From a virus (Duplodnaviria; Heunggongvirae; Uroviricota; Caudoviricetes): a stretch of DNA of 42,841 nucleotides. The notes below the pieces were generated by a model. It was not told the DNA's origin. It searched no databases and saw only the letters and a program-made list of their open reading frames with translations. Both the position numbers and the translations under genes were made by a program. The DNA lies in IMG/VR virus record IMGVR_UViG_3300030019_000001; one strand, 5' to 3'. This document shows positions 3,501 to 42,841 of this stretch, in pieces. Position 1 is the stretch's first letter. Every line of letters starts with the position of its first letter.

Positions 3501-3585
3501 GATAATATTTTTTAATTATTAATTATATACAAAGATAATACTTAATCATGTGATAATCAAAAATGTTTTTATATTTTAAGAATTT

Positions 3586-5897: not shown

Positions 5898-6221
5898 ATG
5901 AAACACATCAAATCATTTGAAGAAAAAATAAATAAAATATCAATAGATGAATTAAAAAATCATGGAATATCAAAAGATTCACCATTTTTGATTAGTGATA
6001 ATGAAAAATTACCAAAAGATACTAAATTTAAAATTGGAGATCATGTTAAAATAAATACAAATAACAATGAATATATCTACAAAATAGAATATTATTGTAT
6101 TGAAACTAAAAAATATACTTGCTTCATAACAATAGACACATTTTCAAGACAATGGATATATGAAGATGAATTAGAATTGGTTCCAGATTATGAAATATCA
6201 TCAAAAAAATTCAACATATGA
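5898..6221 (+). CDS. Small protein, terminal-cassette family A (MKHIKSFEE ... KIGDHVKI ... SSKKFNI)
   Basis: N- and C-terminal cassette; the stop TGA overlaps the next ATG (AACATATGAAA). Confidence 0.6.
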   Translation: MKHIKSFEEKINKISIDELKNHGISKDSPFLISDNEKLPKDTKFKIGDHVKINTNNNEYIYKIEYYCIETKKYTCFITIDTFSRQWIYEDELELVPDYEISSKKFNI

Positions 6222-6586
6222 AATATATTAAGAAATATGAGAACATAGATGAACATGTTAATGCAGAAGGTAAATTTTGGGAAATAAATACAGATGAACC
6301 ATATTTTGAAATCTCATTAAATAAACTTGGTTTTGATGAAGAGTTAAAGGAAAAAATATATGGAATGAATAACTCCTACATAAAAAATAGTGGATTAGTT
6401 TATATTTATATTATTAAAACAAATTTATCATACTTAGGCACATCAGTAACATGGAGTCATGTTACTGATTTCATAAAAGATACTGCAATAGAAAACGGTA
6501 ACAAATATATGGGAAAAGTTGAAATAACCGAAGATGATATTAAAAAATGGAATCTAATTAAAAAGACACAAAAATTCAACTTATGA
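6218..6586 (+). CDS. Small protein, terminal-cassette family A (MKYIKKYEN ... KKTQKFNL)
   Basis: Same cassette; ATGA overlap on both sides. Confidence 0.6.
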   Translation: MKYIKKYENIDEHVNAEGKFWEINTDEPYFEISLNKLGFDEELKEKIYGMNNSYIKNSGLVYIYIIKTNLSYLGTSVTWSHVTDFIKDTAIENGNKYMGKVEITEDDIKKWNLIKKTQKFNL

Positions 6587-7999: not shown

Positions 8000-8887
8000 T
8001 TATTTTTTATTCATATGAAAACAAATCTCGTTTAACCAACCACTTTTATATGATTTAGAATACGCACTAATAGATTTCATATAAAATTCAGATCTAGTCT
8101 TATATTTTAATGCTTCTATTTGACATAATTCTTTTGTCCAATAACCATTTGGTTTTACTAATGGTGTCATATGCAAACATATTTCTTTTAACCATTTATT
8201 TTTTAATGAAATTGTATATGCTGATGCTGATTGTTTTTTAAATTCAACTTTTGTATTAAATTTATTTGCTTCTATTTGACATAATTCTTTTGTCCAATAT
8301 TTTTTACCACCTGTTCCTCCTGTTTTACACTTATTTAAAATTTTCCAATCATTATTTTTATATTTATTAACATAATCCTCTTCTAATATTTTTGATAAAT
8401 AAACATCAATATATTCACTTAATTTTTTAAATTTATAATTATTATTTTTTTGTATATGTTCATAAACTGAGCCTTTTCTTAAATGTTCATTAAATCGTCT
8501 ATCTAAATCACAAGTCAATCCAATATATGCATAGTTATCAGAAAATTCATAAACATAAATACATCTTTTATATAAATCACCCATACACTTCATATGTGAG
8601 CATATTTCATCTATCCATCCATATATTAATGATTTACCATAAATATAACTTGAATTTTTCCTAAATTCATTTCTACTATTAAACTTCAAAGATTCTTTTT
8701 GACAAAAATCTTTTGTCCAGATATATGATTTATTTTTTCTCATATGAGCACAAACATCAAATATCCAATTATTTCTAATTGAGATTCCATATACTTGTTT
8801 ACATTTTATCCTAAATTCTTTTTTAGTTTTATATTTTAATGCTTCTTCAGTGCATTTTTCAATAGTCCATATTTTTTTATCTATCAT
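8000..8887 (-). CDS. GIY-YIG family endonuclease (homing-endonuclease-like) with two N-terminal and two C-terminal ~43-aa W.(K/E).C..E(A/S)LK(Y/F)..R.EF.......Y.....W..EIC.HM repeats
   Basis: Core CIYVYEFSDNYAYIGLTCDLDRRFNEHL (GIY...YIG...R...E). Repeats WTIEKCTEEALKYKTKKEF..., WTKDFCQKESLKFNSRNEF..., WTKELCQIEANKFNTKVEF..., WTKELCQIEALKYKTRSEF... Confidence 0.8.
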   Translation of the reverse strand: MIDKKIWTIEKCTEEALKYKTKKEFRIKCKQVYGISIRNNWIFDVCAHMRKNKSYIWTKDFCQKESLKFNSRNEFRKNSSYIYGKSLIYGWIDEICSHMKCMGDLYKRCIYVYEFSDNYAYIGLTCDLDRRFNEHLRKGSVYEHIQKNNNYKFKKLSEYIDVYLSKILEEDYVNKYKNNDWKILNKCKTGGTGGKKYWTKELCQIEANKFNTKVEFKKQSASAYTISLKNKWLKEICLHMTPLVKPNGYWTKELCQIEALKYKTRSEFYMKSISAYSKSYKSGWLNEICFHMNKK

Positions 8888-11462: not shown

Positions 11463-11909
11463 TTATGACGCCTTAATAATATCTCTATATTTTGCGGCGT
11501 TTTCATAATCTTCTACTTTCACGCAATTCAACATTTTTTCATTGAGAATACCTTGTTGTATACCACGTATTTCAGGAACATCATATTTATAGTTTTCAAT
11601 AAAATCTTGAAATATATTAAAATATTTTTCAGTTTCACGAATAACATCATCCTTATTTAGATTAGCTACGTTAAACATATCTATCATATCAGCGTGTTCA
11701 CTGACTTTTTTCATTTTATTATATACATCATAAGCATCAATCATTAGTTCATCAATATGAAGATATTCAACATCAACAAAATCATTAGTAACATAATCAG
11801 ATTTTTCAAGCAACTGCTGATGATTAAATTTCCTATGTTCAAACAATAAAAATGTTTGTACCCAAAAAATAAGAGTTCTAACGTCATTCACATTAATCTT
11901 TGTTTTCAT
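11463..11909 (-). CDS. Hypothetical protein with a C-terminal UVR-like motif (VEDYENAAKYRDIIKAS)
   Basis: The C-terminus matches the UVR-domain consensus (E.YE.AA..RD.I) seen in UvrB/UvrC and the ClpC middle domain. Confidence 0.45.
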   Translation of the reverse strand: MKTKINVNDVRTLIFWVQTFLLFEHRKFNHQQLLEKSDYVTNDFVDVEYLHIDELMIDAYDVYNKMKKVSEHADMIDMFNVANLNKDDVIRETEKYFNIFQDFIENYKYDVPEIRGIQQGILNEKMLNCVKVEDYENAAKYRDIIKAS

Positions 11910-12338: not shown

Positions 12339-12410
12339 ATATTATATTTTAATAATTGTATATATCTATTTACTTCACAAAGATAATACATTATTTTCAA
12401 ATATCAAAAA

Positions 12411-28081: not shown

Positions 28082-28429
28082 ATGAAATATTTAAAAAATT
28101 TTGAAAATGAATTAACCACTGAATATAAAGTAGGTGATTATGTATCAATTAACTATGATACAAAATCTAACACATTAACAAAGTTGAAGGATTTTGTGAA
28201 TAATTCGATAGGAAAAATAATGTTTATTGATGATAAAAGTATGATTATTCAATATGTTAATATTCCAGATAAAATAAAACATTTTTTTTCTGATAAAAAT
28301 GTTGGAAAAGATAAAATAAAAAATTCTGTATTTTTTTGGAATAAAAATAATACAATAAAAAGATTAGCAACAGATGATGAGATAATAGAATATGAAGCAA
28401 TTAAAAATACAAACAAATTTAACATATGA
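28082..28429 (+). CDS. Small protein, terminal-cassette family A (MKYLKNFENELTTEYKVGDYVSI ... KNTNKFNI)
   Basis: Cassette termini; close paralog of 28426-28767. Confidence 0.6.
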   Translation: MKYLKNFENELTTEYKVGDYVSINYDTKSNTLTKLKDFVNNSIGKIMFIDDKSMIIQYVNIPDKIKHFFSDKNVGKDKIKNSVFFWNKNNTIKRLATDDEIIEYEAIKNTNKFNI

Positions 28430-30894: not shown

Positions 30895-31311
30895 TTAATT
30901 AATTTTTTTCCTTAAATAATTAAAAACAATTTCAAAAAATATCAGTTTAATTGAAAATGCCAACATAACAAACCAAATAGATGTATTCAATGTGATTATA
31001 ACAGATGCAAGAATCATAGTTATTTCAGATATAAACCAAAATAAATGCCATGCATCAGTAAACACAACAAAAATAGTAGTACTTCCTATGAATTTTTCTC
31101 CATTTAATGGATTGGCATTTTTATATTTATTGAGAGACCCCAATCCTTGTTCCCAAAATTTTGGATTTAATTTATATTTTAAATATAATCTTGACTTGTA
31201 AAATAAATTAGGAGAAGATGATATATCAGTTATAGATTTAGATATACCAGATATTAATAATAAAAAAAGTATTATTAAAATGTTTAAAATTGCTGAAGTA
31301 GTTAGTATCAT
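30895..31311 (-). CDS. Predicted multi-pass membrane protein (138 aa) embedded between two group B paralogs
   Basis: Hydrophobic segments MILTTSAILNILIILFLLLISGI and ITMILASVIITLNTSIWFVMLAFSIKLIFF; its start overlaps the KFNI-TGA of the upstream gene. Confidence 0.5.
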   Translation of the reverse strand: MILTTSAILNILIILFLLLISGISKSITDISSSPNLFYKSRLYLKYKLNPKFWEQGLGSLNKYKNANPLNGEKFIGSTTIFVVFTDAWHLFWFISEITMILASVIITLNTSIWFVMLAFSIKLIFFEIVFNYLRKKIN

Positions 31312-31727
31312 ATGTTAAATTTATTTGCTTGTCTTTTTATATTAATATCATTTATTATTTTTTTTATATCACCAGGAATATTTCCATAAATTGTCATCTG
31401 AGAATTTGTGTCTACTATATGACTAAATTTTATTCTTTTCAATCTCAATGTTAAGTATATATGTTTAAGATCATAATTAAATCCATAACTTCTACCGTTT
31501 ATAATTCCTTTATGATGTTTATTTGAATGTATAAAATTTGTAACACCATTTATATCATCTGTACATTTATTACAATTAAATTCAACAATGTTATTGTTGA
31601 AATTAAATAATTTGAAAATGAAATTTCGTATTGAATCTTCATGACTATCAAAGTAATCTACAATATCATCCAATACCAATGTGACTTTATCATCTGAGTT
31701 CTCGAATAATTTGAATTCTGTTATCAT
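31308..31727 (-). CDS. Terminal-cassette group B protein (MITEFKLFENSDD ... EFNCNKCTDDING ... TIYGNIPGDIKKIINDINIKRQANKFNI)
   Basis: Paralog of 30456-30893. Confidence 0.6.
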   Translation of the reverse strand: MITEFKLFENSDDKVTLVLDDIVDYFDSHEDSIRNFIFKLFNFNNNIVEFNCNKCTDDINGVTNFIHSNKHHKGIINGRSYGFNYDLKHIYLTLRLKRIKFSHIVDTNSQMTIYGNIPGDIKKIINDINIKRQANKFNI

Positions 31728-31741
31728 GCTGATATATATAA

Positions 31742-32920
31742 TTATTTGAATTTGTTTTTTAATACTTGATATTGAGATTTAACAGAATAATAAGACCTAT
31801 TTAATTTTTTAGCACAACATTTTATTCCTATATGATAATTTTCAATTAAAAAAATAATATCATCTTCTGGCCATGAATTTTTTCTTTTTTTTGCTATCAT
31901 ATGAGAGCATATATCTTTATACCATTCATTTTTAATTGCAGATGCTGCTGCACTACTATTGTTTTTTAGAAAATCATCTTTATAAATATATTTTGATGCC
32001 TCGTATTTACATTTTTCATATGTCCAAAATTTAGCAGATCCTCCTAATGTACTTTTTTTGTTAGTATTTAATAATTTCCAATTATTATTTTTGTATTCAT
32101 TCATATAATATTCTTCCAATTTCTGTGCTTCTGATTTATTAATATAGTCAGTTAATTGTATCAATTTATATTTATTGCTTGCTTTTTGTAAATGTTTGTA
32201 AATTGGACCTTTTTTAATATGCTCCTGCTCTCTAATTTTTATATTATATGTCAATCCAATATATGCACAATTATCATCAAATTCAAAAGCATAAATACAT
32301 CTAAATTCTTTACTACCAATTTTTATCATATGTGAACAGATATCATTAGATATATTATTTACATTTGAAAAATTATAAGCACCTCTATATTTTTTTTGAA
32401 AATCATTTCTACTATTACACTTTAATGCTTCTTCTTTGCATTTATCATAATTCCAATAATTATTAACATAAGTCATATGATTACAAATTTTTTCTATCCA
32501 TTTTTTTGAAATAGATATTCTATATGCACTAGCATCATTTTTTCTAAAATCAGTTCTGGTTAAATATTTTAATGCTACTTCTTGACATTTTTCTATTGTC
32601 CAGTAATTATTAGGTTTATGACTTAAATTCATATGAGAACAAATACTATTTAGCCAATTATTTTTTAATGACTTATTATATGCAGTTGCTTCATTTTTTT
32701 GAAAATCTGATATAGAATTATAATTTAATGCTGCTTCTTGACATTTATTGTGTGTCCAATGTCCTGGAGTATTAATTTTATATTTCATATGTGAACAAAC
32801 AATATTTAAATATTTATTTTTTACACAAGCATTATATGCTAAATTATCTAATTTTTTAAAATCACTTCTATATTCATATTTTAATGCTGCTTTTTGACAT
32901 ATTTCTAATGTCCATTTCAT
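31742..32920 (-). CDS. GIY-YIG family endonuclease (homing-endonuclease-like) with four N-terminal and one C-terminal ~43-aa W..E.C..(A/E)AL.Y..R.DF.K...AY.....W...IC.HM repeats and a C-terminal helix-turn-helix-like tail
   Basis: Core FRCIYAFEFDDNCAYIGLTYNIKIREQEHIKKG. Repeats WTLEICQKAALKYEYRSDF..., WTHNKCQEAALNYNSISDF..., WTIEKCQEVALKYLTRTDF..., WNYDKCKEEALKCNSRNDF..., WTYEKCKYEASKYIYKDDF.... Tail NSWPEDDIIFLIENYHIGIKCCAKKLNRSYYSVKSQY. Confidence 0.8.
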   Translation of the reverse strand: MKWTLEICQKAALKYEYRSDFKKLDNLAYNACVKNKYLNIVCSHMKYKINTPGHWTHNKCQEAALNYNSISDFQKNEATAYNKSLKNNWLNSICSHMNLSHKPNNYWTIEKCQEVALKYLTRTDFRKNDASAYRISISKKWIEKICNHMTYVNNYWNYDKCKEEALKCNSRNDFQKKYRGAYNFSNVNNISNDICSHMIKIGSKEFRCIYAFEFDDNCAYIGLTYNIKIREQEHIKKGPIYKHLQKASNKYKLIQLTDYINKSEAQKLEEYYMNEYKNNNWKLLNTNKKSTLGGSAKFWTYEKCKYEASKYIYKDDFLKNNSSAAASAIKNEWYKDICSHMIAKKRKNSWPEDDIIFLIENYHIGIKCCAKKLNRSYYSVKSQYQVLKNKFK

Positions 32921-33089
32921 AGTTTTTATTGTTTATTTTTTAATAATTTATTATATATTATAAAACAATTAATGTTTTTGATCATATAAAATAAAGTTAA
33001 ACTATAAATATTTTGATTTATGAAATAAATTCATTATATTTGTAAAAATATAAACTTAAAAATAAAATAAAATAATATTAGATAAATAT

Positions 33090-36884: not shown

Positions 36885-37286
36885 TTAAACTATTTCAATT
36901 GTGATTTTGATTCCTTTTTTTTGTGCTGCTATCATATTGTCACATACTTTATTCATCCAAAATCTAGAATTTGTAACTTCTCCTTTAACTTTATTTTCTC
37001 CTACAATTACACAACCTGATGTAGATGTTTCATTTATTCCATTATGAATACGAATACCATCAAATCCTGGTACATCTATTAATAAAGGTAGTAATCTTTT
37101 GAATCTATTTGACATGTTTACAATTACTTTATATTTTCCAATTGGAATTGCAGTTTTGTCTTTTATTTTAATATTTCTAACAACATCTTCAATAGTGTCA
37201 CAAATATATATACCGTTTTCATATAGTTTACCTATTGTATATTTATCATTGTGAAATATTCTACATAATTTATATTCTAAATTCAT
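36885..37286 (-). CDS. Hypothetical protein (133 aa) with a His/Cys motif IRIHNGINETSTSGCVIVG reminiscent of L,D-transpeptidase-like (YkuD-fold) cysteine hydrolases
   Basis: ORF with an ATG; identification rests on a weak motif only. Confidence 0.45.
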   Translation of the reverse strand: MNLEYKLCRIFHNDKYTIGKLYENGIYICDTIEDVVRNIKIKDKTAIPIGKYKVIVNMSNRFKRLLPLLIDVPGFDGIRIHNGINETSTSGCVIVGENKVKGEVTNSRFWMNKVCDNMIAAQKKGIKITIEIV

Positions 37287-37301
37287 ATTTACTTATTTTT
37301 T

Positions 37302-37628
37302 TTAGTCAACGTAATCAAAAACATAATCCTCATCAACATAAGTAGTACTATTATTTTTTTTGGTATACCCTCCACTATTATAGCTACTTCTAAAATGATT
37401 ATTCATGTTATTTTCAGTCATATAATATAGTCTAAATTTTTCATTTAATTCCCATATTTTTTGTTCTTGAATTCTTTGCTTTTCAAGTTTATGATATTTT
37501 TCGTTCTCAATTTCCTTATACATATCATCAAGATTCATCATAATAATATTTTTTATTTTTCTTTTGTTTATATATAAATATTTTTTTATTTTTATTGAAT
37601 ATATTATAATATTAACATTTAATAACAT
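37302..37628 (-). CDS. Hypothetical protein (108 aa)
   Basis: ORF with an ATG. Confidence 0.4.
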   Translation of the reverse strand: MLLNVNIIIYSIKIKKYLYINKRKIKNIIMMNLDDMYKEIENEKYHKLEKQRIQEQKIWELNEKFRLYYMTENNMNNHFRSSYNSGGYTKKNNSTTYVDEDYVFDYVD

Positions 37629-37711
37629 TTTTAAAAATTATATATAAAATGGATAGTTTTTATTTTTTGTTCCTAATATACCATTACTTTGATAATGTAT
37701 ATCAATCATTA

Positions 37712-39352
37712 TTATAAATGGATTAGTTGTTGTACCCCTGTTATAGTAGGTATACTATTTACATTTAATGCAATTTCAATAATTCCATCAATTTCTAATA
37801 ATGATGTATTTAAATGAGTTGAATCTCCACCTATATTACTTAATTTGATTTCATCTATAAAATGTCCCCATCTTGGACGATCTGTTGTTCCTGTTACAGA
37901 AATTGTTTGTGGTATAGTCAATTCAGAATTGAATGTTTGTCCTGATTGGTTATAACCTTTACTGTAATTTACATAATAGTTTAATGCAAATGTTCCTGAA
38001 ATTGCTGTACCATTATGACTCCAATGTGTGTGTAAATATATATCAGAGTTTGGTAAATAATCATGTGGCATATGATATGTAATATTATCTATCTTATCAT
38101 TAACTTGAAATGTATAATTAAGTATATTAGTTCCTCTTAACGGTGATAATGAAGGAGCAGTAGATCCACCAACCCTTGGTATTATCTGACCGATTAAATC
38201 TTTATATCCAAATGTCGGTGTTGTATTGTCTATCATTATACCTGTTCCTGACAACTTTGGTAATATTAAATTACCATTTAAATTTAATAATGAATTATGA
38301 TATGTTAATCCACTTTCAACATTTACATTTGGAGATGATACATTTAATGTAAGTAGTCCATAATTCGTTGTACCATTTAATGATACTGTTCCTGAACTTC
38401 CTGATGTTCCATTGGTTCCTGAACTTCCTGATGTTCCATTGGTTCCTGAACTTCCTGACGTTCCATTCGTTCCTGATGTTCCATTTGTGCCTGAACTTCC
38501 TGATGTTCCATTTGTTCCTGACGTTCCATTTGTTCCTGACGTTCCATTCGTTCCTGATGTTCCATTTGTGCCTGAACTTCCTGATGTTCCATTTGTTCCT
38601 GATGTTCCATTTGTTCCTGACGTTCCATTTGTTCCTGACGTTCCATTCGTTCCTGATGTTCCATCTGTTCCTGAACTTCCTGATGTTCCATTCGTTCCTG
38701 ATGTTCCATCTATTCCTGATGTTCCATCTATTCCTGATGTTCCATCTATTCCTGATGTTCCATCTATTCCTGATGTTCCATCTGTTCCTGAACTTCCCGA
38801 TGTTCCATCTGTTCCTGAAATTCCTGATGTTCCATCTATTCCTGATGTTCCATCTATTCCTGAAGGACCAGGAGCACCATTTAATGATACATTCCAAAAA
38901 TTATATGTTCCGCTACCAATAGATGAAGTAATATTTGAAAATATTTCACCTGTTATTTTATTATATGATAATATATAATTTATCATTAAATTTGATGAGT
39001 CATGTGTTATTATAATATCTTGTCCTGTAGATAATGATAAATTAGGCTCAACAAAAAATGATATTGTACCTCCTGTTGATATTTCTAATGTATTATTCGA
39101 AAATGTAGTATATTTATCTCCACTTAATCCATTTGTTCCTGAACTTCCATTTGTTCCTGAACTTCCATTTGTACCTGATGTTCCATCTGTTCCTGATGTT
39201 CCATCTGTTCCTGAACTTCCATTTGTTCCTGAACTTCCATTTGTTCCTGATGTGTGAGAAATGCCAGATAGAGATTCTAAATATGAAAAATTACCGTCCA
39301 TTTCGGTTATAGTTAATCTTTCTCCTTTTTGTTGTCTTAAAATTAAACTCAT
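37712..39352 (-). CDS. Collagen-like triple-helix repeat protein (two G-X-Y blocks, about 45 and about 150 residues, of GT(S/N/D)G(S/T)SGT type) with a C-terminal globular domain of about 230 aa
   Basis: GTNGSSGTDGTSGTDGTSGTNGSSGTNG... and GPSGIDGTSGIDGTSGISGTDGTSGSSGTDG... runs. Repeats at the DNA level generate four spurious overlapping ORFs. Confidence 0.8.
   Translation of the reverse strand: MSLILRQQKGERLTITEMDGNFSYLESLSGISHTSGTNGSSGTNGSSGTDGTSGTDGTSGTNGSSGTNGSSGTNGLSGDKYTTFSNNTLEISTGGTISFFVEPNLSLSTGQDIIITHDSSNLMINYILSYNKITGEIFSNITSSIGSGTYNFWNVSLNGAPGPSGIDGTSGIDGTSGISGTDGTSGSSGTDGTSGIDGTSGIDGTSGIDGTSGIDGTSGTNGTSGSSGTDGTSGTNGTSGTNGTSGTNGTSGTNGTSGSSGTNGTSGTNGTSGTNGTSGTNGTSGSSGTNGTSGTNGTSGSSGTNGTSGSSGTNGTSGSSGTVSLNGTTNYGLLTLNVSSPNVNVESGLTYHNSLLNLNGNLILPKLSGTGIMIDNTTPTFGYKDLIGQIIPRVGGSTAPSLSPLRGTNILNYTFQVNDKIDNITYHMPHDYLPNSDIYLHTHWSHNGTAISGTFALNYYVNYSKGYNQSGQTFNSELTIPQTISVTGTTDRPRWGHFIDEIKLSNIGGDSTHLNTSLLEIDGIIEIALNVNSIPTITGVQQLIHL
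38400..38880. repeat. Coding 9/18-bp (G-X-Y) tandem repeats of the collagen-like gene (the major block; a minor block is at about 39121-39255)
   Basis: ggaacatca/ggaacgtca/ggaacatcagg units repeated. Confidence 0.8.
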
Positions 39353-39894: not shown

Positions 39895-40102
39895 CAGGAC
39901 AAGCAGTAAATATAACTATGAGTGATTCATATTGTGATATATTTAGTATAAATTTTACTTATAATCAGACAATTGAATATATTATTGAAATAATATCATA
40001 AAATGTTTTGTTATTAGGAAAAAATGTTGTAAATTTGCACTATCAATTACAATAGATAATTAAATAAACTATATAGTAAAGTATATACATATATAATAAG
40101 TT

Positions 40103-40396
40103 ATGGAGAAAATAAAAACAAAATCATTGGAAGACATTTTATCAGAAAATGGTATTTCTAGTAATACTGAAGAAGAGTATAAATTAATATTGTGGAATGA
40201 TGATGTGAATTCATTCGAATGGGTAATAACTTGTCTAATGGCATATTTAAAATTTTCATTTGAAAGAGGTCAAGCATCAGCTTATAATGTTCATCTTATA
40301 GGTAAAGATATTATTAAAACTGGCTCAAAAGAATCATTGGAGCCTTACAAAAAATTATTAGAAGAGAAAGGATTATCTCTCACAATAGAACAATAA
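40103..40396 (+). CDS. clpS: ClpS-like ATP-dependent Clp protease adaptor (N-degron recognition)
   Basis: YKLILWNDDVNSFEWVITCLMAYLKFSFERGQASAYNVHLIGKDIIKTGSKESLEPYKKLLEEKGLSL aligns with the ClpS core [24 protein letters not shown]...A.QLML.VH..GKA. Confidence 0.8.
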   Translation: MEKIKTKSLEDILSENGISSNTEEEYKLILWNDDVNSFEWVITCLMAYLKFSFERGQASAYNVHLIGKDIIKTGSKESLEPYKKLLEEKGLSLTIEQ

Positions 40397-40397
40397 A

Positions 40398-40676
40398 ATG
40401 AAAAAAAATACAATAGATTATATTTTGTATATTTATACTACTTTTATATTAAAAAATAAAAGTGGTGATATTTATAAAAAATGGGCAATTCCATTTATGA
40501 CATTATTAGAATGGACATATAATTTGTACATTTTTATTTTCGCTTTAATATTATACTTACCATTTTTATTGATTTCAATGACTATTGGCGAAAAATTGAA
40601 AATTAAGAAATTTCAATTAATGAGAGAAATTGTCAAATATAATAACATAACAAATAACAATAATAAAATTAATTAA
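40398..40676 (+). CDS. Small predicted membrane protein (92 aa) between clpS and clpC
   Basis: Hydrophobic helices [13 protein letters not shown] and [22 protein letters not shown]. Confidence 0.4.
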
Positions 40677-40680
40677 GCCT

Positions 40681-42841
40681 ATGAATTACTCGAAAGAAGT
40701 AGAAGAAGTTATTAAACTAAGTAAGGGAATTGCAATTATTATTCAATCTAACACAATCAGGCCTGAGCATTTATTCTTAGCAATGATAGATGAGGAATAT
40801 TCTGAAGCATCTAATATAATGAGAGATTTAAATCTCAATATTAATGCTATCAAATCAACAATTCGTGATTGGTCTAAAGATTTACAAAAACAGAATGGTT
40901 TGAATTCTCTTAGAAAGAATGCTTCTATTCCATTAGAATTAGAAACTGAAAAAATTCTAAAAGAATCTGTGGTTTTTGCCAAATCAATGGACTCAGATGA
41001 AGTTTGTATTGAGCATGTTTTTTATGCAATATTGGATAATAATAATAACCTTGTTTCAGATTTATTTAATAAATCACCTGAAATTTTAAGAAGTTTAAAA
41101 AACAAATTAAAAAATGAAGAAGATGAACTTAATATTAATGATGAATTAGAAAATAGTAACATGGACGAAGAACAAGAACAAGAAGTAAAAGGAAAGAGCA
41201 AATCAAAAACTAAATTGATTGATCAATTTGGTACAAATCTGACCAATCTTGCAAAAGAAGGTAAACTTGATCCAGTAGTAGGACGTGCAGATGAAATTAA
41301 AAGAATCTCACAGATTTTATCAAGACGTAAGAAAAACAATCCTGTTTTGGTAGGAGAACCTGGAGTAGGAAAATCTGCTATTGTAGAAGGATTGGCTCAG
41401 TTAATCGTAGATGGACTTGTTCCTGAAAATTTACAGGATAAGAAAATTATTACTCTTGATATGGGTTCTTTAGTAGCAGGAACTAAATATCGTGGTGAAT
41501 TTGAACAAAGATTAAGAGGTATTGTCAAAGAAATGGAAGAAAATCCTGACATTATTCTTTTTATTGATGAAATTCATACTATTATAGGTGCTGGCTCAGC
41601 CCAAGGTTCACTCGATGCTTCCAATATGTTGAAACCAGGATTAGCAAGAGGTACATTTAGATGTATTGGTGCTACTACACTTGAAGAATATCGTAAGTAT
41701 GTAGAAAAAGATGCTGCATTAGAACGTAGATTTCAGAAAGTTGTTGTTGAGGCAACCAGTAAGTCAGAAACTTTAGAAATTCTGAAAAATATAAAAAAAC
41801 AATATGAAGATCATCACAAAGTTACATATACTGATGATGCATTAGAAGCTTGTGTTAATTTGTCTGGTAAATATATATCAGAAAAATTCTTTCCAGATAA
41901 GGCAATTGATGTTCTTGATGAGGCTGGCGCTATGGTTCACGTTAATGGTACAAGTGCTATTCCTGTAAAAATTGTTGAACTCAGCAAAAAAATAAAAATA
42001 TCTATTGTGGAAAAACTTGATTGTATTTCAAATCAGAAATATGAAATTGCTGCTGAACATAGAGATAATGAAAAACAATGGAAATCTGAACTTGAAACTG
42101 AAAAAGAAACATGGAGTCAATCACATTCTGATAATCGTCCTTTGGTAACACAACAGGATATAGCTGAAGTTGTTGCTCTTATAACAAAAATACCTGTAGA
42201 TAATGTTTCTGTTGATGAAAACAATAAGCTTAAATATATGGCTAATAAAGTTAAAACTATTGTTATTGGACAAGATGAAGCAGTTGACAAAATAGTTCAA
42301 TCAGTTAAGAGATCAAGAGTTGGTATAAATAGTCATGATAAACCAGTTGGCACATTTATTTTCTCAGGACCTACTGGAGTAGGTAAAACATATCTTGCTA
42401 AAATTATGGCAAAGGAGTTATTTGGTTCTGAAGATGCTATGATTAGAATTGATATGAGTGAATTTATGGAAAAATTCTCAGTATCTAGATTAGTAGGAGC
42501 ACCTCCTGGATATGTTGGATATGAAGATGGTGGTAAATTAACTGAAGCAGTTAGACGTAAGCCTTATTCTATTATTCTTCTTGATGAAATTGAAAAAGCT
42601 CACCCTGATGTTCAAAATATCCTTCTTCAAGTGTTGGATGATGGTGTATTGACAGATAGTAATGGACGTAAAGTCGATTTTAAAAATACTATTATTGTTA
42701 TGACAACAAATGCTGGTTCACGAAAATTGAAAGATTTTGGTACTGGTATTGGATTTGGACTTAATAAAAATAATCAAGACTCTAAAAATTCAGTTCTTAA
42801 AAAAGAATTAGAAAAAGTTTTTAGTCCTGAATTTTTAAATC
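40681..42841 (+). CDS. clpC: ClpC/ClpA-class Hsp100 unfoldase, partial (at least 720 aa; the 3' end is beyond the window): Clp N-domain repeats, AAA+ D1, a short middle domain with a UVR-like motif, and AAA+ D2 with an IGF ClpP-docking loop
   Basis: [15 protein letters not shown] (Walker A, D1), [15 protein letters not shown] (Walker B), [15 protein letters not shown] (UVR-like), [14 protein letters not shown] (Walker A, D2), [26 protein letters not shown], and GTGIGFGL. It is not in the ORF track because it runs off the window. Confidence 0.9.

What the first reader, a model, noticed from the sequence alone, without database searches (positions are those of the whole stretch)
40103..42841. 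clpS - membrane ORF - clpC(IGF loop) module in a virus-like, Shine-Dalgarno-free context
A bona fide ClpS adaptor is followed by a small membrane ORF and a ClpC/ClpA-class unfoldase. The unfoldase has an N-domain, two AAA+ modules, a UVR-like middle-domain motif and the IGF tripeptide that docks ClpP. Adjacent clpS and clpA/C is the bacterial or plastid arrangement. Here, however, the flanking genes include a collagen-like protein, GIY-YIG endonucleases and an A22-like resolvase, no SD sequences are present, and the DNA is very AT-rich. Together with DnaJ (9602) and a UVR-domain protein (11463), this suggests an element-encoded proteostasis and N-degron targeting module. No ClpP is visible in the window. 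A link between ClpS/ClpC and the conserved protein termini described above is pure speculation.
Basis: partly seen in the sequence, partly recalled or inferred. Interest (0 to 1): 0.75.

Follow-up and report, generated by a model that had tools for sequence, protein, structure and literature searches.

The report
Huge-phage ClpS–ClpC protein-degradation operon
A very large bacteriophage that probably infects Bacteroidota carries its own operon for a ClpS substrate adaptor, a small membrane protein and a ClpC unfolding motor; phage-borne Clp machinery is already known, and this is a new arrangement of it.

Summary
clpS (40103-40396), a 92-aa single-pass membrane ORF (40398-40676) and a ClpC-type double-ring AAA+ unfoldase (40681 to the window end; 842 aa in full) form one tightly packed operon. 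ClpC has an N-domain, intact Walker and pore-loop motifs, a UVR-like M-motif and a GIGFG ClpP-docking loop.

The element is not a eukaryotic giant virus. Its large ORFs match only the 634-735 kb 'Mahaphage' genomes, Lak phages and jumbo phages of Bacteroidota. Missing Shine-Dalgarno sites, TTTG-N19-TAnnTTTG promoters and a Bacteroidota-like ClpC all point to a Bacteroidota host.

The trio is syntenic in at least eight lineages of this phage clade, on contigs up to 711 kb. ClpS keeps the N-degron alpha-amino-binding residues but has invariant pocket changes (M40F, M62A, T38N). Two clade members encode a bona fide ClpP about 50 kb downstream; for this phage ClpP is unresolved.

The most likely function is a phage-run ClpS-ClpC(-ClpP) N-degron protease that remodels the proteome of the infected cell. 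Clp sets in jumbo phages are already published (Atu_ph07; Iyer et al. 2021). The operon, the ClpC type and the clade-specific membrane ORF make this a new variant of moderate interest.

The parts
40007..40037 (+). Bacteroidota-type promoter-like motif TTTG-N19-TAAATTTG, 66 nt upstream of clpS
   Evidence: One search found 5 matches in the window. Four of them lie 30-66 nt upstream of co-oriented gene starts, with a positional P of about 3e-5. That TTTG...TAnnTTTG is the Bacteroidota sigma-A consensus comes from my own knowledge, not from a tool.
40103..40396 (+). clpS, N-recognin adaptor (97 aa): a 24-residue N-terminal extension followed by the ClpS core
   Evidence: Pfam PF02617, E 2e-15. 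Matches PDB ClpS chains 9ayn and 1mbu. N34, D35 and H66 (E. coli numbering) are invariant in 51 homologues and D36 is kept in 46 of 51. M40F, M62A and T38N are invariant or nearly so.
40398..40676 (+). Clade-specific small membrane protein (92 aa). It starts 1 nt after the clpS stop and ends 4 nt before the clpC start.
   Evidence: No Pfam or NCBIfam family. Transmembrane segment at about residues 42-64. The AF2 model has helices 2-18 and 24-91, mean pLDDT 75. Orthologues sit in the same position in L001, L012, L166, L168, L169 and L263. Only about 7 clusters exist among 1.84 billion representative proteins.
40681..42841 (+). clpC-type class I Hsp100 unfoldase, first 720 of 842 codons (cut by the window end)
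   Evidence: Pfam Clp_N, AAA, AAA_lid_9 and AAA_2. Aligns in one stretch (residues 3-811) to B. subtilis ClpC 3j3s, E 4e-215. P0001 is 100% identical.
40681..41130 (+). ClpC N-domain (about aa 1-150), the expected docking site for ClpS
   Evidence: Pfam Clp_N covers aa 24-61. The alignment to ClpC structures starts at residue 3. The domain is retained in 21 clade members at 45% mean identity. Docking of ClpS is inferred, not shown.
42034..42078 (+). UVR-like motif of the short M-domain ([15 protein letters not shown]), the ClpC hallmark
   Evidence: Pfam UVR (PF02151) is precomputed on several clade homologues.
42745..42759 (+). GIGFG, the ClpP-docking (I/V/M)GF loop of D2
   Evidence: The motif G-x-G-[IVM]-G-F is present in 20 of 21 clade members. 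It is absent from the ClpB-type outgroups.

Best explanation
The window is part of a huge (Mahaphage-type) bacteriophage that most likely infects Bacteroidota. clpS, the small membrane ORF and clpC form one operon transcribed from a host-type promoter.

Proposed mechanism:
1. The phage ClpC assembles into a double-ring hexamer.
2. Its N-domains bind the phage ClpS.
3. ClpS captures proteins by their N-terminal residue and hands them to the ClpC pore.
4. ClpC threads them through its IGF loops into a ClpP peptidase. That ClpP is encoded by the phage in at least some clade members; otherwise it would be the host's.

The result is a phage-controlled N-degron protease that reshapes the proteome of the infected cell. 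Possible substrates are host proteins, or cleavage products of phage and host proteins. The small membrane protein is a clade-specific third component, perhaps a membrane tether or a regulator.

Shown here: gene identities, motif integrity, operon conservation, phage identity, and ClpP on the same contig in two relatives. Inferred: ClpS-ClpC binding, ClpP docking, the substrates, the timing, and the role of the membrane ORF.
For: Phage identity:
- The 1417-aa ORF matches the 735-kb phage LR756501 over 96% of its length. It also matches the 634-642 kb phages, Lak phages and jumbo phages of Tenacibaculum, Chryseobacterium and Flavobacterium.
- The 717-aa ORF hits only those huge phages.
- Close relatives are IMG/VR viral contigs.
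- Contigs reach 711 kb.

Bacteroidota host:
- An SD-like core precedes only 1 of 53 genes.
- Promoter motifs are positioned upstream of gene starts.
- The best GTDB ClpC hits are Bacteroidia and Flavobacteriales.
- The loop context SRxLKDFGTG[IMV]GF is shared with Bacteroidia.
- In the NJ tree the phage clade has 100% support and sits inside a Bacteroidota-plus-phage group with 71% support.
- ClpP of relatives is 70-72% identical to Bacteroidota ClpP.

Functional unit:
- The gaps between the three genes are 1 nt and 4 nt.
- clpS lies immediately upstream of clpC in all eight distinct lineages examined.
- 18 ClpS/ClpC pairs share the same longest-contig length.
- ClpS and ClpC identities fall together across lineages.

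Competence:
- Walker, pore-loop and IGF motifs are intact.
- The ClpS alpha-amino-binding residues are invariant.

ClpP:
- The 121,682-bp contig carries clpS-sORF-clpC at 33-36 kb and clpP at 89 kb.
- The 501,337-bp contig carries clpC at 461 kb and clpP at 415 kb, on the same strand.
Against: - No ClpP was found for this phage itself. It is absent from the window and the 10 kb downstream.
- No clpP locus on the 64-235 kb contigs of the relatives with 84-92% ClpC identity appeared in two top-80 scans. This sub-lineage may therefore rely on host ClpP, or on none.
- The ClpS pocket lining differs from characterised ClpS proteins (M40F, M62A, T38N), so N-degron specificity is unknown.
- No N-degron-generating enzyme was identified in the window.
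- Nothing here shows expression or physical interaction.
- No capsid, portal or terminase gene was identified in the window itself.
Confidence: 0.6

Rival explanations
1. ClpC works without ClpP, as a stand-alone unfoldase or disaggregase that helps fold, assemble or translocate virion proteins together with the phage DnaJ. ClpS only modulates which proteins it engages.
For: - No ClpP was found for this phage or its closest relatives.
- A full-length DnaJ lies in the same window, and a DnaJ is also near the module in L263.
- Iyer et al. propose assembly or translocase roles for phage ClpA and ClpX (PMC7824862).
- Attai et al. propose stress-survival roles (PMC6102473).
Against: - The (I/V/M)GF loop is conserved in 20 of 21 clade members. 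Its only known role is ClpP docking; that point is from my own knowledge. The ClpB-type outgroups lack it.
- ClpP is on the same contig in two clade members.
- ClpS is, as far as known, a degradation adaptor.
Confidence: 0.15
2. The phage ClpS targets the host Clp machinery. It would redirect or inhibit host ClpA/ClpC-ClpP rather than serve the phage ClpC, and the adjacency would reflect co-expression only.
For: - Iyer et al. suggest that phage ClpS brings targets to the host ClpAP.
- LR745206 and LR756502 carry a ClpS; the only Clp ATPase found in each lies far from it and matches only from residue ~170, and the LR756502 one, read in full, has no Clp_N domain. ClpS there would need a host partner.
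Against: In this clade clpS is always immediately upstream of an N-domain-bearing clpC (8 of 8 lineages). The two proteins diverge in step. This is the pattern expected of interacting partners.
Confidence: 0.12
3. The contig is a piece of a cellular genome, either an AT-rich reduced bacterium or a plastid, in which clpS-clpC is ordinary housekeeping.
For: - Contigs of 500-711 kb overlap the size range of reduced bacterial genomes.
- One relative sits in an NCBI MAG assembly (GCA_964520455.1).
- Relatives carry NusG, S1, NAPRTase and release-factor fragments.
Against: - There are no tRNA, rRNA or Rfam hits in 42.8 kb.
- Most ORFs have no family.
- The large ORFs match only curated huge-phage genomes.
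- Relatives are IMG/VR viral contigs, including the 501-kb one.
- None of the 80 bacterial ClpC loci has clpS within 5 kb.
Confidence: 0.03
4. The element is a eukaryote-infecting giant virus (Nucleocytoviricota) that acquired an organelle-like Clp module.
For: The genome is AT-rich and carries a collagen-repeat protein, GIY-YIG endonucleases, DnaJ, NUDIX and a RuvC-type resolvase. All of these also occur in mimivirus-like genomes.
Against: - No NCLDV hallmark was found, and there is no Pfam Pox_A22 hit.
- Homology is to Mahaphage, Lak and Bacteroidota jumbo phages.
- Bacterial-type NusG and S1 lie in the syntenic neighbourhoods.
- The promoters are Bacteroidota-type.
- ClpC and ClpP have Bacteroidota affinity.
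Confidence: 0.02

Closest known systems
Clp gene set of Agrobacterium jumbo phage Atu_ph07 (Attai et al. 2018, PMC6102473)
   Same: It is a cultured 490-kb phage that encodes ClpS, ClpA, ClpP, ClpX, ClpB and DnaJ. So a phage carrying the adaptor, unfoldase, peptidase and a J-protein is already documented.
   Different: - In Atu_ph07 the genes are dispersed (gp292 ClpA, gp676 ClpP, gp708 ClpS). Here clpS and clpC form one operon.
- The Atu_ph07 unfoldase is annotated as ClpA and the host is a proteobacterium. Here the unfoldase is ClpC-type, with a UVR-like M-motif and Bacteroidota affinity.
- Atu_ph07 is not described as having a small membrane ORF between the two genes.
- None of the functions has been tested experimentally in either phage.
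Survey of jumbo-phage ClpS, ClpA, ClpX and ClpP (Iyer, Anantharaman, Krishnan, Burroughs, Aravind 2021, PMC7824862)
   Same: The survey states that several jumbo phages encode ClpS, which likely delivers targets for degradation. It also states that some encode ClpP, ClpA or ClpX.
   Different: The survey assumes that ClpS feeds the host ClpAP. Here ClpS is strictly linked to a phage ClpC that has an N-domain. The clade is known only from metagenomes, and tblastn with this ClpS finds no cultured phage in INPHARED.
Published Mahaphage genomes LR756502, LR745206 and LR756504 (Al-Shayeb et al. 2020, PMC7162821)
   Same: They belong to the same broad group of huge phages of Bacteroidota. All three encode a ClpS (34-42% identical). 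LR756502 and LR745206 have a ClpC-like ATPase 57-58% identical over the AAA core. LR756502 and LR756504 have ClpP in two places each.
   Different: - In LR756502 the ATPase is 707 aa and has no Clp_N domain.
- In LR745206 and LR756502 clpS is more than 200 kb from the ATPase.
- In LR745206 clpS lies beside a terminase-like ORF.
- The main text of that paper does not mention Clp.
Bacterial ClpS-ClpA/ClpC-ClpP N-degron pathway (E. coli ClpAPS; actinobacterial and cyanobacterial or plastid ClpS-ClpC)
   Same: - The same three protein families are involved.
- ClpS keeps N34, D35, D36 and H66 and has an N-terminal extension.
- ClpC has an N-domain, pore loops and an IGF loop.
   Different: - The pocket lining differs: M40F, M62A and T38N.
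- A membrane ORF is inserted between clpS and clpC.
- The module is carried by a virus.
- None of the 80 bacterial ClpC loci sampled has clpS within 5 kb, so the operon was probably not captured whole from a ClpC-type locus.
ClpC of B. subtilis and S. aureus, and ClpC1 of M. tuberculosis (PDB 3j3s, 6em8, 8a8u)
   Same: These are the best solved-structure matches. They align end to end in one stretch (E 1e-206 to 1e-215), with the same N-D1-M-D2 layout.
   Different: Identity is only about 43-44% to firmicute and actinobacterial ClpC loci. The Firmicute adaptors MecA and McsB were not looked for. The UVR-motif protein at 11463-11909 lacks the zinc-finger cysteines expected of McsA (the McsA comparison is from my own knowledge).

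Membership tests
ClpS (Pfam PF02617) | Sequence match to the family model above the curated threshold | tested here: met
   56.7 bits against a gathering score of 23, covering 75 of 80 profile positions. The NCBIfam ClpS equivalog models match only below their strict cut-offs. PDB ClpS chains are the only solved-structure hits.
ClpS (Pfam PF02617) | Residues that bind the substrate alpha-amino group (E. coli N34, D35/D36, H66) | tested here: met
   N32, D33, D34 and H64 in the window protein. N, D35 and H are invariant in 51 homologues, and D36 is kept in 46 of 51. The residue roles are from my own knowledge of the E. coli and C. crescentus ClpS structures.
ClpS (Pfam PF02617) | Hydrophobic pocket lining as in characterised ClpS proteins (M40 gatekeeper, M62, T38). 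This sets specificity and does not define the family. | tested here: not met
   F38, A60 and N36 replace M40, M62 and T38. The changes are invariant or nearly so in the clade. Specificity cannot be transferred from E. coli.
ClpS (Pfam PF02617) | Flexible N-terminal extension ahead of the core, needed for hand-off to the unfoldase | tested here: met
   24 residues precede the core (alignment). Unusually, part of the extension is conserved at 90% or more (K..L..IL...GI).
ClpS (Pfam PF02617) | Binding to the N-domain of a ClpA/ClpC partner | not testable with these tools
   Only indirect evidence is available: strict adjacency and co-divergence with an N-domain-bearing ClpC. The positions aligned with E. 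coli E79 and E82 are acidic in most homologues.
ClpC-type class I Hsp100 unfoldase | N-domain plus two AAA+ modules with intact Walker A/B motifs and pore loops | tested here: met
   Pfam Clp_N, AAA, AAA_lid_9 and AAA_2. Motif positions are given.
ClpC-type class I Hsp100 unfoldase | Short M-domain with a UVR-like motif (ClpC, as opposed to ClpA with none or ClpB with a long one) | tested here: met
   Aligns in a single stretch to B. subtilis ClpC, residues 3-811, whereas ClpB and ClpA chains match in pieces. The motif [15 protein letters not shown] is at aa 452-466. Pfam UVR is recorded on clade homologues.
ClpC-type class I Hsp100 unfoldase | (I/V/L/M)GF loop for ClpP docking | tested here: met
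   GIGFG at aa 689-693. Present in 20 of 21 clade members and absent from the ClpB-type outgroups.
ClpC-type class I Hsp100 unfoldase | A ClpP partner available in the same genome | tested here: inconclusive
   ClpP is on the same contig in two clade members. It was not found for this phage or its 84-92% relatives. The full 711-kb contig could not be retrieved.
Huge 'Mahaphage'-type phages of Bacteroidota | Shared genes with curated huge-phage genomes | tested here: met
   The 1417-aa ORF is 37% identical over 96% of its length to LR756501 (735 kb). It also matches LR756504, LR745206, LR756502, Lak phages and Bacteroidota jumbo phages. The 717-aa ORF matches the same set.
Huge 'Mahaphage'-type phages of Bacteroidota | Genome larger than 200 kb | tested here: met
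   The database lists a longest contig of 711,471 bp carrying proteins identical to the window's ClpC and ClpS. Relatives lie on contigs of 501 and 531 kb. Completeness is unknown.
Huge 'Mahaphage'-type phages of Bacteroidota | Virion hallmark genes (terminase, portal, major capsid) | tested here: inconclusive
   None was recognised among the ten largest window ORFs scanned against PHROGs or the ORFs scanned against Pfam. The collagen protein matches tail-fibre families only through its repeats.
Nucleocytoviricota (giant viruses of eukaryotes) | NCLDV hallmark genes, including a poxvirus A22-type resolvase | tested here: not met
   The resolvase-like ORF has no Pfam family and only a PHROG RuvC-like match. 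No NCLDV-specific family was hit in any scan.

The most novel reading that the evidence does not exclude
The conserved small membrane protein between clpS and clpC is a true third subunit. It would anchor or gate a phage-private ClpS-ClpC protease at the cell membrane. The remodelled ClpS pocket (M40F, M62A, T38N) would read a non-canonical N-terminal signal created by a phage peptidase; an M16 peptidase lies a few genes upstream in most relatives. The phage would then run an orthogonal, spatially restricted degradation code that the host Clp system does not see.
Probability: 0.12. Interest if true: 0.6.

Novelty: new variant of a known kind. Interest (0 to 1): 0.35.

Why it matters
Huge phages carry many 'cellular' functions, and how they take control of host protein turnover is largely unstudied.

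This clade offers a compact, conserved, probably self-sufficient N-degron system: adaptor, unfoldase and, in some members, peptidase. Its ClpS pocket is altered and it has an unknown membrane partner. Such a system could show how a virus reprogrammes bacterial proteolysis. It could also supply an orthogonal degradation tag system, or new N-terminal amino-acid binders for biotechnology.

The finding is incremental rather than surprising. Phage-borne ClpS, ClpA and ClpP have been annotated since 2018.

Tried and rejected
- Giant virus of eukaryotes: rejected on homology, promoters and phylogeny.
- Plastid, cyanobacterial or Firmicutes donor for ClpC: rejected. Those sequences fall outside the Bacteroidota-plus-phage group.
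- Capture of a ready-made bacterial clpS-clpC operon: not supported. No ClpS lies within 5 kb of any of 80 bacterial ClpC loci.
- McsA-like role for the UVR-motif protein at 11463-11909: rejected. It has no zinc-finger cysteines.
- Finding clpP of this very phage failed by several routes:
  - HMM search of the window and flanks.
  - Two profile scans of IMG/VR, each limited to the best 80 of about 555 loci.
  - Retrieval of the large contigs, where only short contigs came with DNA.
  - Genes flanking clpP are not conserved between the two relatives that have it, so they gave no handle.
- Donor lineage of ClpS: undetermined. The word-indexed search returned only phage-clade members.
- Sigma-70 and terminator consensus scans of the module: no more matches than in shuffled sequence.
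- GC content of the ClpP loci did not identify fragments of the same phage.
Full report
**1. Observation**

- clpS is at 40103-40396 and encodes 97 aa. It matches Pfam ClpS well above threshold (56.7 bits against 23).
- One base after its stop, a 92-aa ORF (40398-40676) begins. It has no Pfam or NCBIfam family. It has one strongly hydrophobic segment at about residues 42-64.
- Four bases after that ORF's stop, a Clp/Hsp100 gene starts at 40681 and runs off the window end after 720 codons. An identical 842-aa protein, P0001, exists in public metagenomes.

The unfoldase has a Clp_N domain and two AAA+ modules, with intact Walker A/B motifs and KYRG and GYVG pore loops. It also has a UVR-like motif ([15 protein letters not shown], aa 452-466) and a GIGFG loop (aa 689-693) at the position of the ClpP-docking loop. 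Its best solved relatives are B. subtilis and S. aureus ClpC and M. tuberculosis ClpC1, each aligned in one stretch from residue 3 to about 811. It is therefore ClpC-type, not ClpA or ClpB.

The context claims also hold.

- GC is 24%.
- Only 1 of 53 genes has an SD-like core upstream, and the upstream regions are 60% A.
- The collagen-repeat protein, the two GIY-YIG proteins, DnaJ and the UVR-motif protein are all present.
- The 'A22-like resolvase' is supported only as a RuvC-like resolvase (PHROG 159).
- The window has no ClpP, no tRNA and no Rfam family.

**2. What the element is**

Most ORFs have no family. The informative ones point to a huge bacteriophage, not to a giant virus of eukaryotes.

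- The 1417-aa ORF (19911-24164) aligns over 96% of its length with the 735-kb 'uncultured phage' LR756501. It aligns more partially with the 634-642 kb genomes, with the Prevotella Lak phages, and with jumbo phages of Tenacibaculum, Chryseobacterium and Flavobacterium.
- The 717-aa ORF hits only the same huge phages.
- These GenBank records are the 'Mahaphage' genomes of Al-Shayeb et al. [quoted passage not shown]
- Close relatives of the module (84-92% ClpC identity) are IMG/VR viral contigs of 64-235 kb.
- The database lists a 711,471-bp contig carrying the identical ClpC and ClpS.

Several lines support a Bacteroidota host.

- Shine-Dalgarno sites are absent. That this is typical of the phylum is from my own knowledge.
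- TTTG-N19-TAnnTTTG motifs are present. That this is the Bacteroidota sigma-A promoter consensus is also from my own knowledge. Four of five matches lie 30-66 nt upstream of co-oriented starts, including one 66 nt upstream of clpS (positional P about 3e-5).
- The ClpC and ClpP relationships described below point the same way.

**3. Conservation of the module**

clpS lies directly upstream of clpC in every lineage of the clade for which flanks were obtained.

| Locus | ClpC identity to the window | Notes |
|---|---|---|
| the phage itself | 100% | several samples |
| L001-L004 | 92% | |
| L012 | 84% | |
| L168 | 69% | 531-kb contig |
| L169 | 66% | 501-kb contig |
| L166 | 65% | ClpC carries an intein |
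| L263 | 63% | |
| L170 | 59% | no small ORF called |

The small ORF is present in all but the most distant lineage. It has a conserved pattern, MKKfI..YiLYIY..fI...DIYKKWa.Pf...(TM)...P.....M. A search of 1.84 billion representative proteins finds only about seven clusters of it, so it is specific to this clade. An AF2 model (pLDDT 75) gives a short N-terminal helix and one long helix that contains the hydrophobic segment.

The wider neighbourhood is also syntenic. The order is a fused SbcCD, a 73-aa ORF, then (in relatives) an M16 peptidase, nicotinamidase and NAPRTase, then clpS, the small ORF, clpC, DUF1599, and further on S1, NusG and radical SAM.

Eighteen ClpS/ClpC cluster pairs share the same longest-contig length. 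ClpS and ClpC identities decline together across lineages. None of the 80 bacterial ClpC loci, and none of the other IMG/VR loci, has a ClpS within the flanks. The operon therefore looks like a feature of the phage clade rather than a captured bacterial operon.

**4. The proteins in detail**

ClpS. The 51 homologues are all from this clade. The residues aligned with E. coli N34, D35 and H66 are invariant, and D36 is kept in 46 of 51. M40 is always F, M62 is A in 50 of 51, and T38 is N in 50 of 51. The first four residues bind the substrate alpha-amino group and the others line the side-chain pocket; these roles are from my own knowledge. N-terminal recognition is thus probably retained but with unknown specificity. 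The same F/A/N pattern is visible in the distant ClpS of LR745206.

ClpC. The G-x-G-[IVM]-G-F loop is kept in 20 of 21 clade members. The AAA modules are 75-78% identical on average and the N-domain 45%.

Phylogeny of ClpC. In a neighbour-joining tree of the AAA core the clade is monophyletic (100% bootstrap). It lies inside a group made of Bacteroidota ClpC and other phage Clp ATPases (71%). It lies apart from the cyanobacterial, firmicute and actinobacterial ClpC sequences. The loop context SRxLKDFGTG[IMV]GF is shared with Bacteroidia. The best GTDB hits are Bacteroidia and Flavobacteriales at 47-54% identity.

**5. ClpP**

A bona fide ClpP, with the Ser-His-Asp motifs, is encoded by LR756502, by LR756504 and by all Lak phages. 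About 555 IMG/VR loci also carry one.

Two members of the clpS-clpC clade carry it on the same contig.

- JGI 3300022555 Ga0212088_10000228 (121,682 bp) has clpC at 33.6-36.1 kb and clpP at 89.3 kb.
- JGI 3300044712 Ga0453684_0000059 (501,337 bp) has clpC at 461 kb and clpP at 415 kb.

In both, clpP lies about 46-53 kb downstream of clpC on the same strand. These ClpPs are 70-72% identical to Bacteroidota ClpP.

For the phage of this window and its 84-92% relatives no clpP was found. The scans return only the best 80 loci, and the 711-kb contig could not be retrieved. The point is therefore open.

**6. Mechanism**

The best-supported reading is a phage-run N-degron protease. ClpS binds the N-domain of the phage ClpC, selects proteins by their N-terminus and passes them to the ClpC pore. 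ClpC feeds them into ClpP through its IGF loops. That ClpP may be the phage's own or the host's, which is highly similar.

- Shown: gene identity, motif integrity, operon structure and conservation, phage and host assignment, and ClpP on the same contig in two relatives.
- Inferred: the physical interactions, the substrates, the timing and the role of the membrane ORF.

Rivals:
- ClpP-independent chaperone work together with the phage DnaJ.
- ClpS acting on the host Clp machinery.
- A cellular origin of the contig.
- A giant virus of eukaryotes.

The conserved IGF loop and the strict clpS-clpC linkage argue against the first two. Homology, the lack of tRNA/rRNA genes and the promoters argue against the last two.

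**7. Comparison with what is known**

Phage-borne Clp sets are documented.

- Atu_ph07 encodes ClpX, ClpA, ClpB, ClpP, ClpS and DnaJ, dispersed in its 490-kb genome (PMC6102473).
- Iyer et al. note ClpS, ClpP, ClpA and ClpX in jumbo phages and propose that ClpS feeds the host ClpAP (PMC7824862).
- The published Mahaphage genomes carry ClpS, and ClpP or a Clp ATPase, at separate places in the genome. The one ATPase read in full (LR756502) has no N-domain.
- Neither the main text of Al-Shayeb et al. nor a 2026 jumbo-phage review mentions Clp.

The following points are new:
- The operon itself.
- A full-length ClpC-type partner next to ClpS.
- The clade-specific membrane ORF between the two genes.
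- The invariant pocket substitutions in ClpS.
- The breadth of the clade: 93 listed ClpC clusters (at 90% identity) that are 56-100% identical to the window's ClpC.

No GenBank phage record holds this arrangement.

**8. Verdict**

The module is a new variant of a known kind and of moderate interest (0.35). The 'virus-like, SD-free' oddity disappears once the element is recognised as a phage of Bacteroidota. What remains is a well-defined and testable system.

Noticed in passing
L166 10001-13567 (P0041); also P0025, P0034, P0047, P0050, P0054, P0056, P0059, P0061, P0067, P0079: Many clade ClpC genes carry a 338-aa intein. It starts with Cys, ends in His-Asn followed by Thr, and has Hom_end/Hint Pfam hits. 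In P0041, the one aligned, it sits inside the D2 Walker A motif (GPTGVGK|T). The window's ClpC has no intein.
   Followed up: partly
window 36885-39352: The block of DUF5675, a 108-aa ORF and the collagen-repeat protein is an insertion relative to the closest relative. In L001 the SbcCD gene is followed directly by the 73-aa ORF. The collagen gene also varies in length between samples: 546 aa here, 483 aa in L351.
   Followed up: partly
window 3530-3561(-), 12378-12408(-), 33012-33042(+), 40007-40037(+): TTTG-N18-21-TAnnTTTG motifs lie 30-66 nt upstream of co-oriented gene starts. They are candidate host-type promoters that mark operon starts.
   Followed up: partly
window 6202-6221, 6567-6586, 28410-28429, 31308-31327 and similar junctions: Several genes that overlap by ATGA share a near-identical junction sequence, AAAAA(T/A)TT(C/T)AAC(A/T)T-ATG. 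As a result the upstream proteins end in similar residues.
   Followed up: no
L008-L011, L015, L018, L021-L080, L206, L258, L262; L268 3896-6019: A large family of 650-710-aa Clp ATPases without an N-domain is widespread on IMG/VR huge-phage contigs. Most of the sampled members keep a (V/I/M/L)GF loop. Some lie within 3 kb of clpP (L206, L258, L262).
   Followed up: partly
window 11463-11909 (-): A 148-aa protein whose only recognisable feature is a C-terminal UVR motif (Pfam E 1.6e-6). The motif resembles the one in the ClpC M-domain. The protein has no zinc-finger cysteines. Any link to ClpC is speculative.
   Followed up: partly
window 8000-8887 (-) and 31742-32920 (-): The two GIY-YIG proteins look like paralogues: both match the same ORF of L012, at 45% and 69% identity. 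This fits mobile homing endonucleases.
   Followed up: no
L166, L168, L169, L170, L263 (3-5 genes upstream of clpS): Relatives carry nicotinamidase (isochorismatase family) and NAPRTase, and all but L169 an M16 peptidase, between SbcCD and clpS. The window lacks them at this position. The NAD-salvage genes fit published jumbo-phage NAD+ systems (PMC11662467, seen).
   Followed up: no
L266 1193-1870: Two short ORFs near clpP on the 501-kb contig hit the release-factor families PCRF and RF-1. This may relate to stop-codon reassignment, as in Lak phages. The window itself reads cleanly with the standard code (90% coding).
   Followed up: no
L263 21751-22425: A homologue of the anti-CBASS protein family Acb3 (PF25187) lies about 9 kb downstream of clpC in one relative.
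   Followed up: no
window 40115-40156 (ClpS residues 5-18): The N-terminal extension of ClpS, usually variable and disordered, has positions conserved at 90% or more across the clade (K..L..IL...GI). This hints at a specific contact.
   Followed up: no
whole element: A 711,471-bp contig carries the identical ClpC and ClpS. If it is a complete genome it would be among the largest phage genomes known, just below the 735-kb record. It could not be retrieved here.
   Followed up: partly
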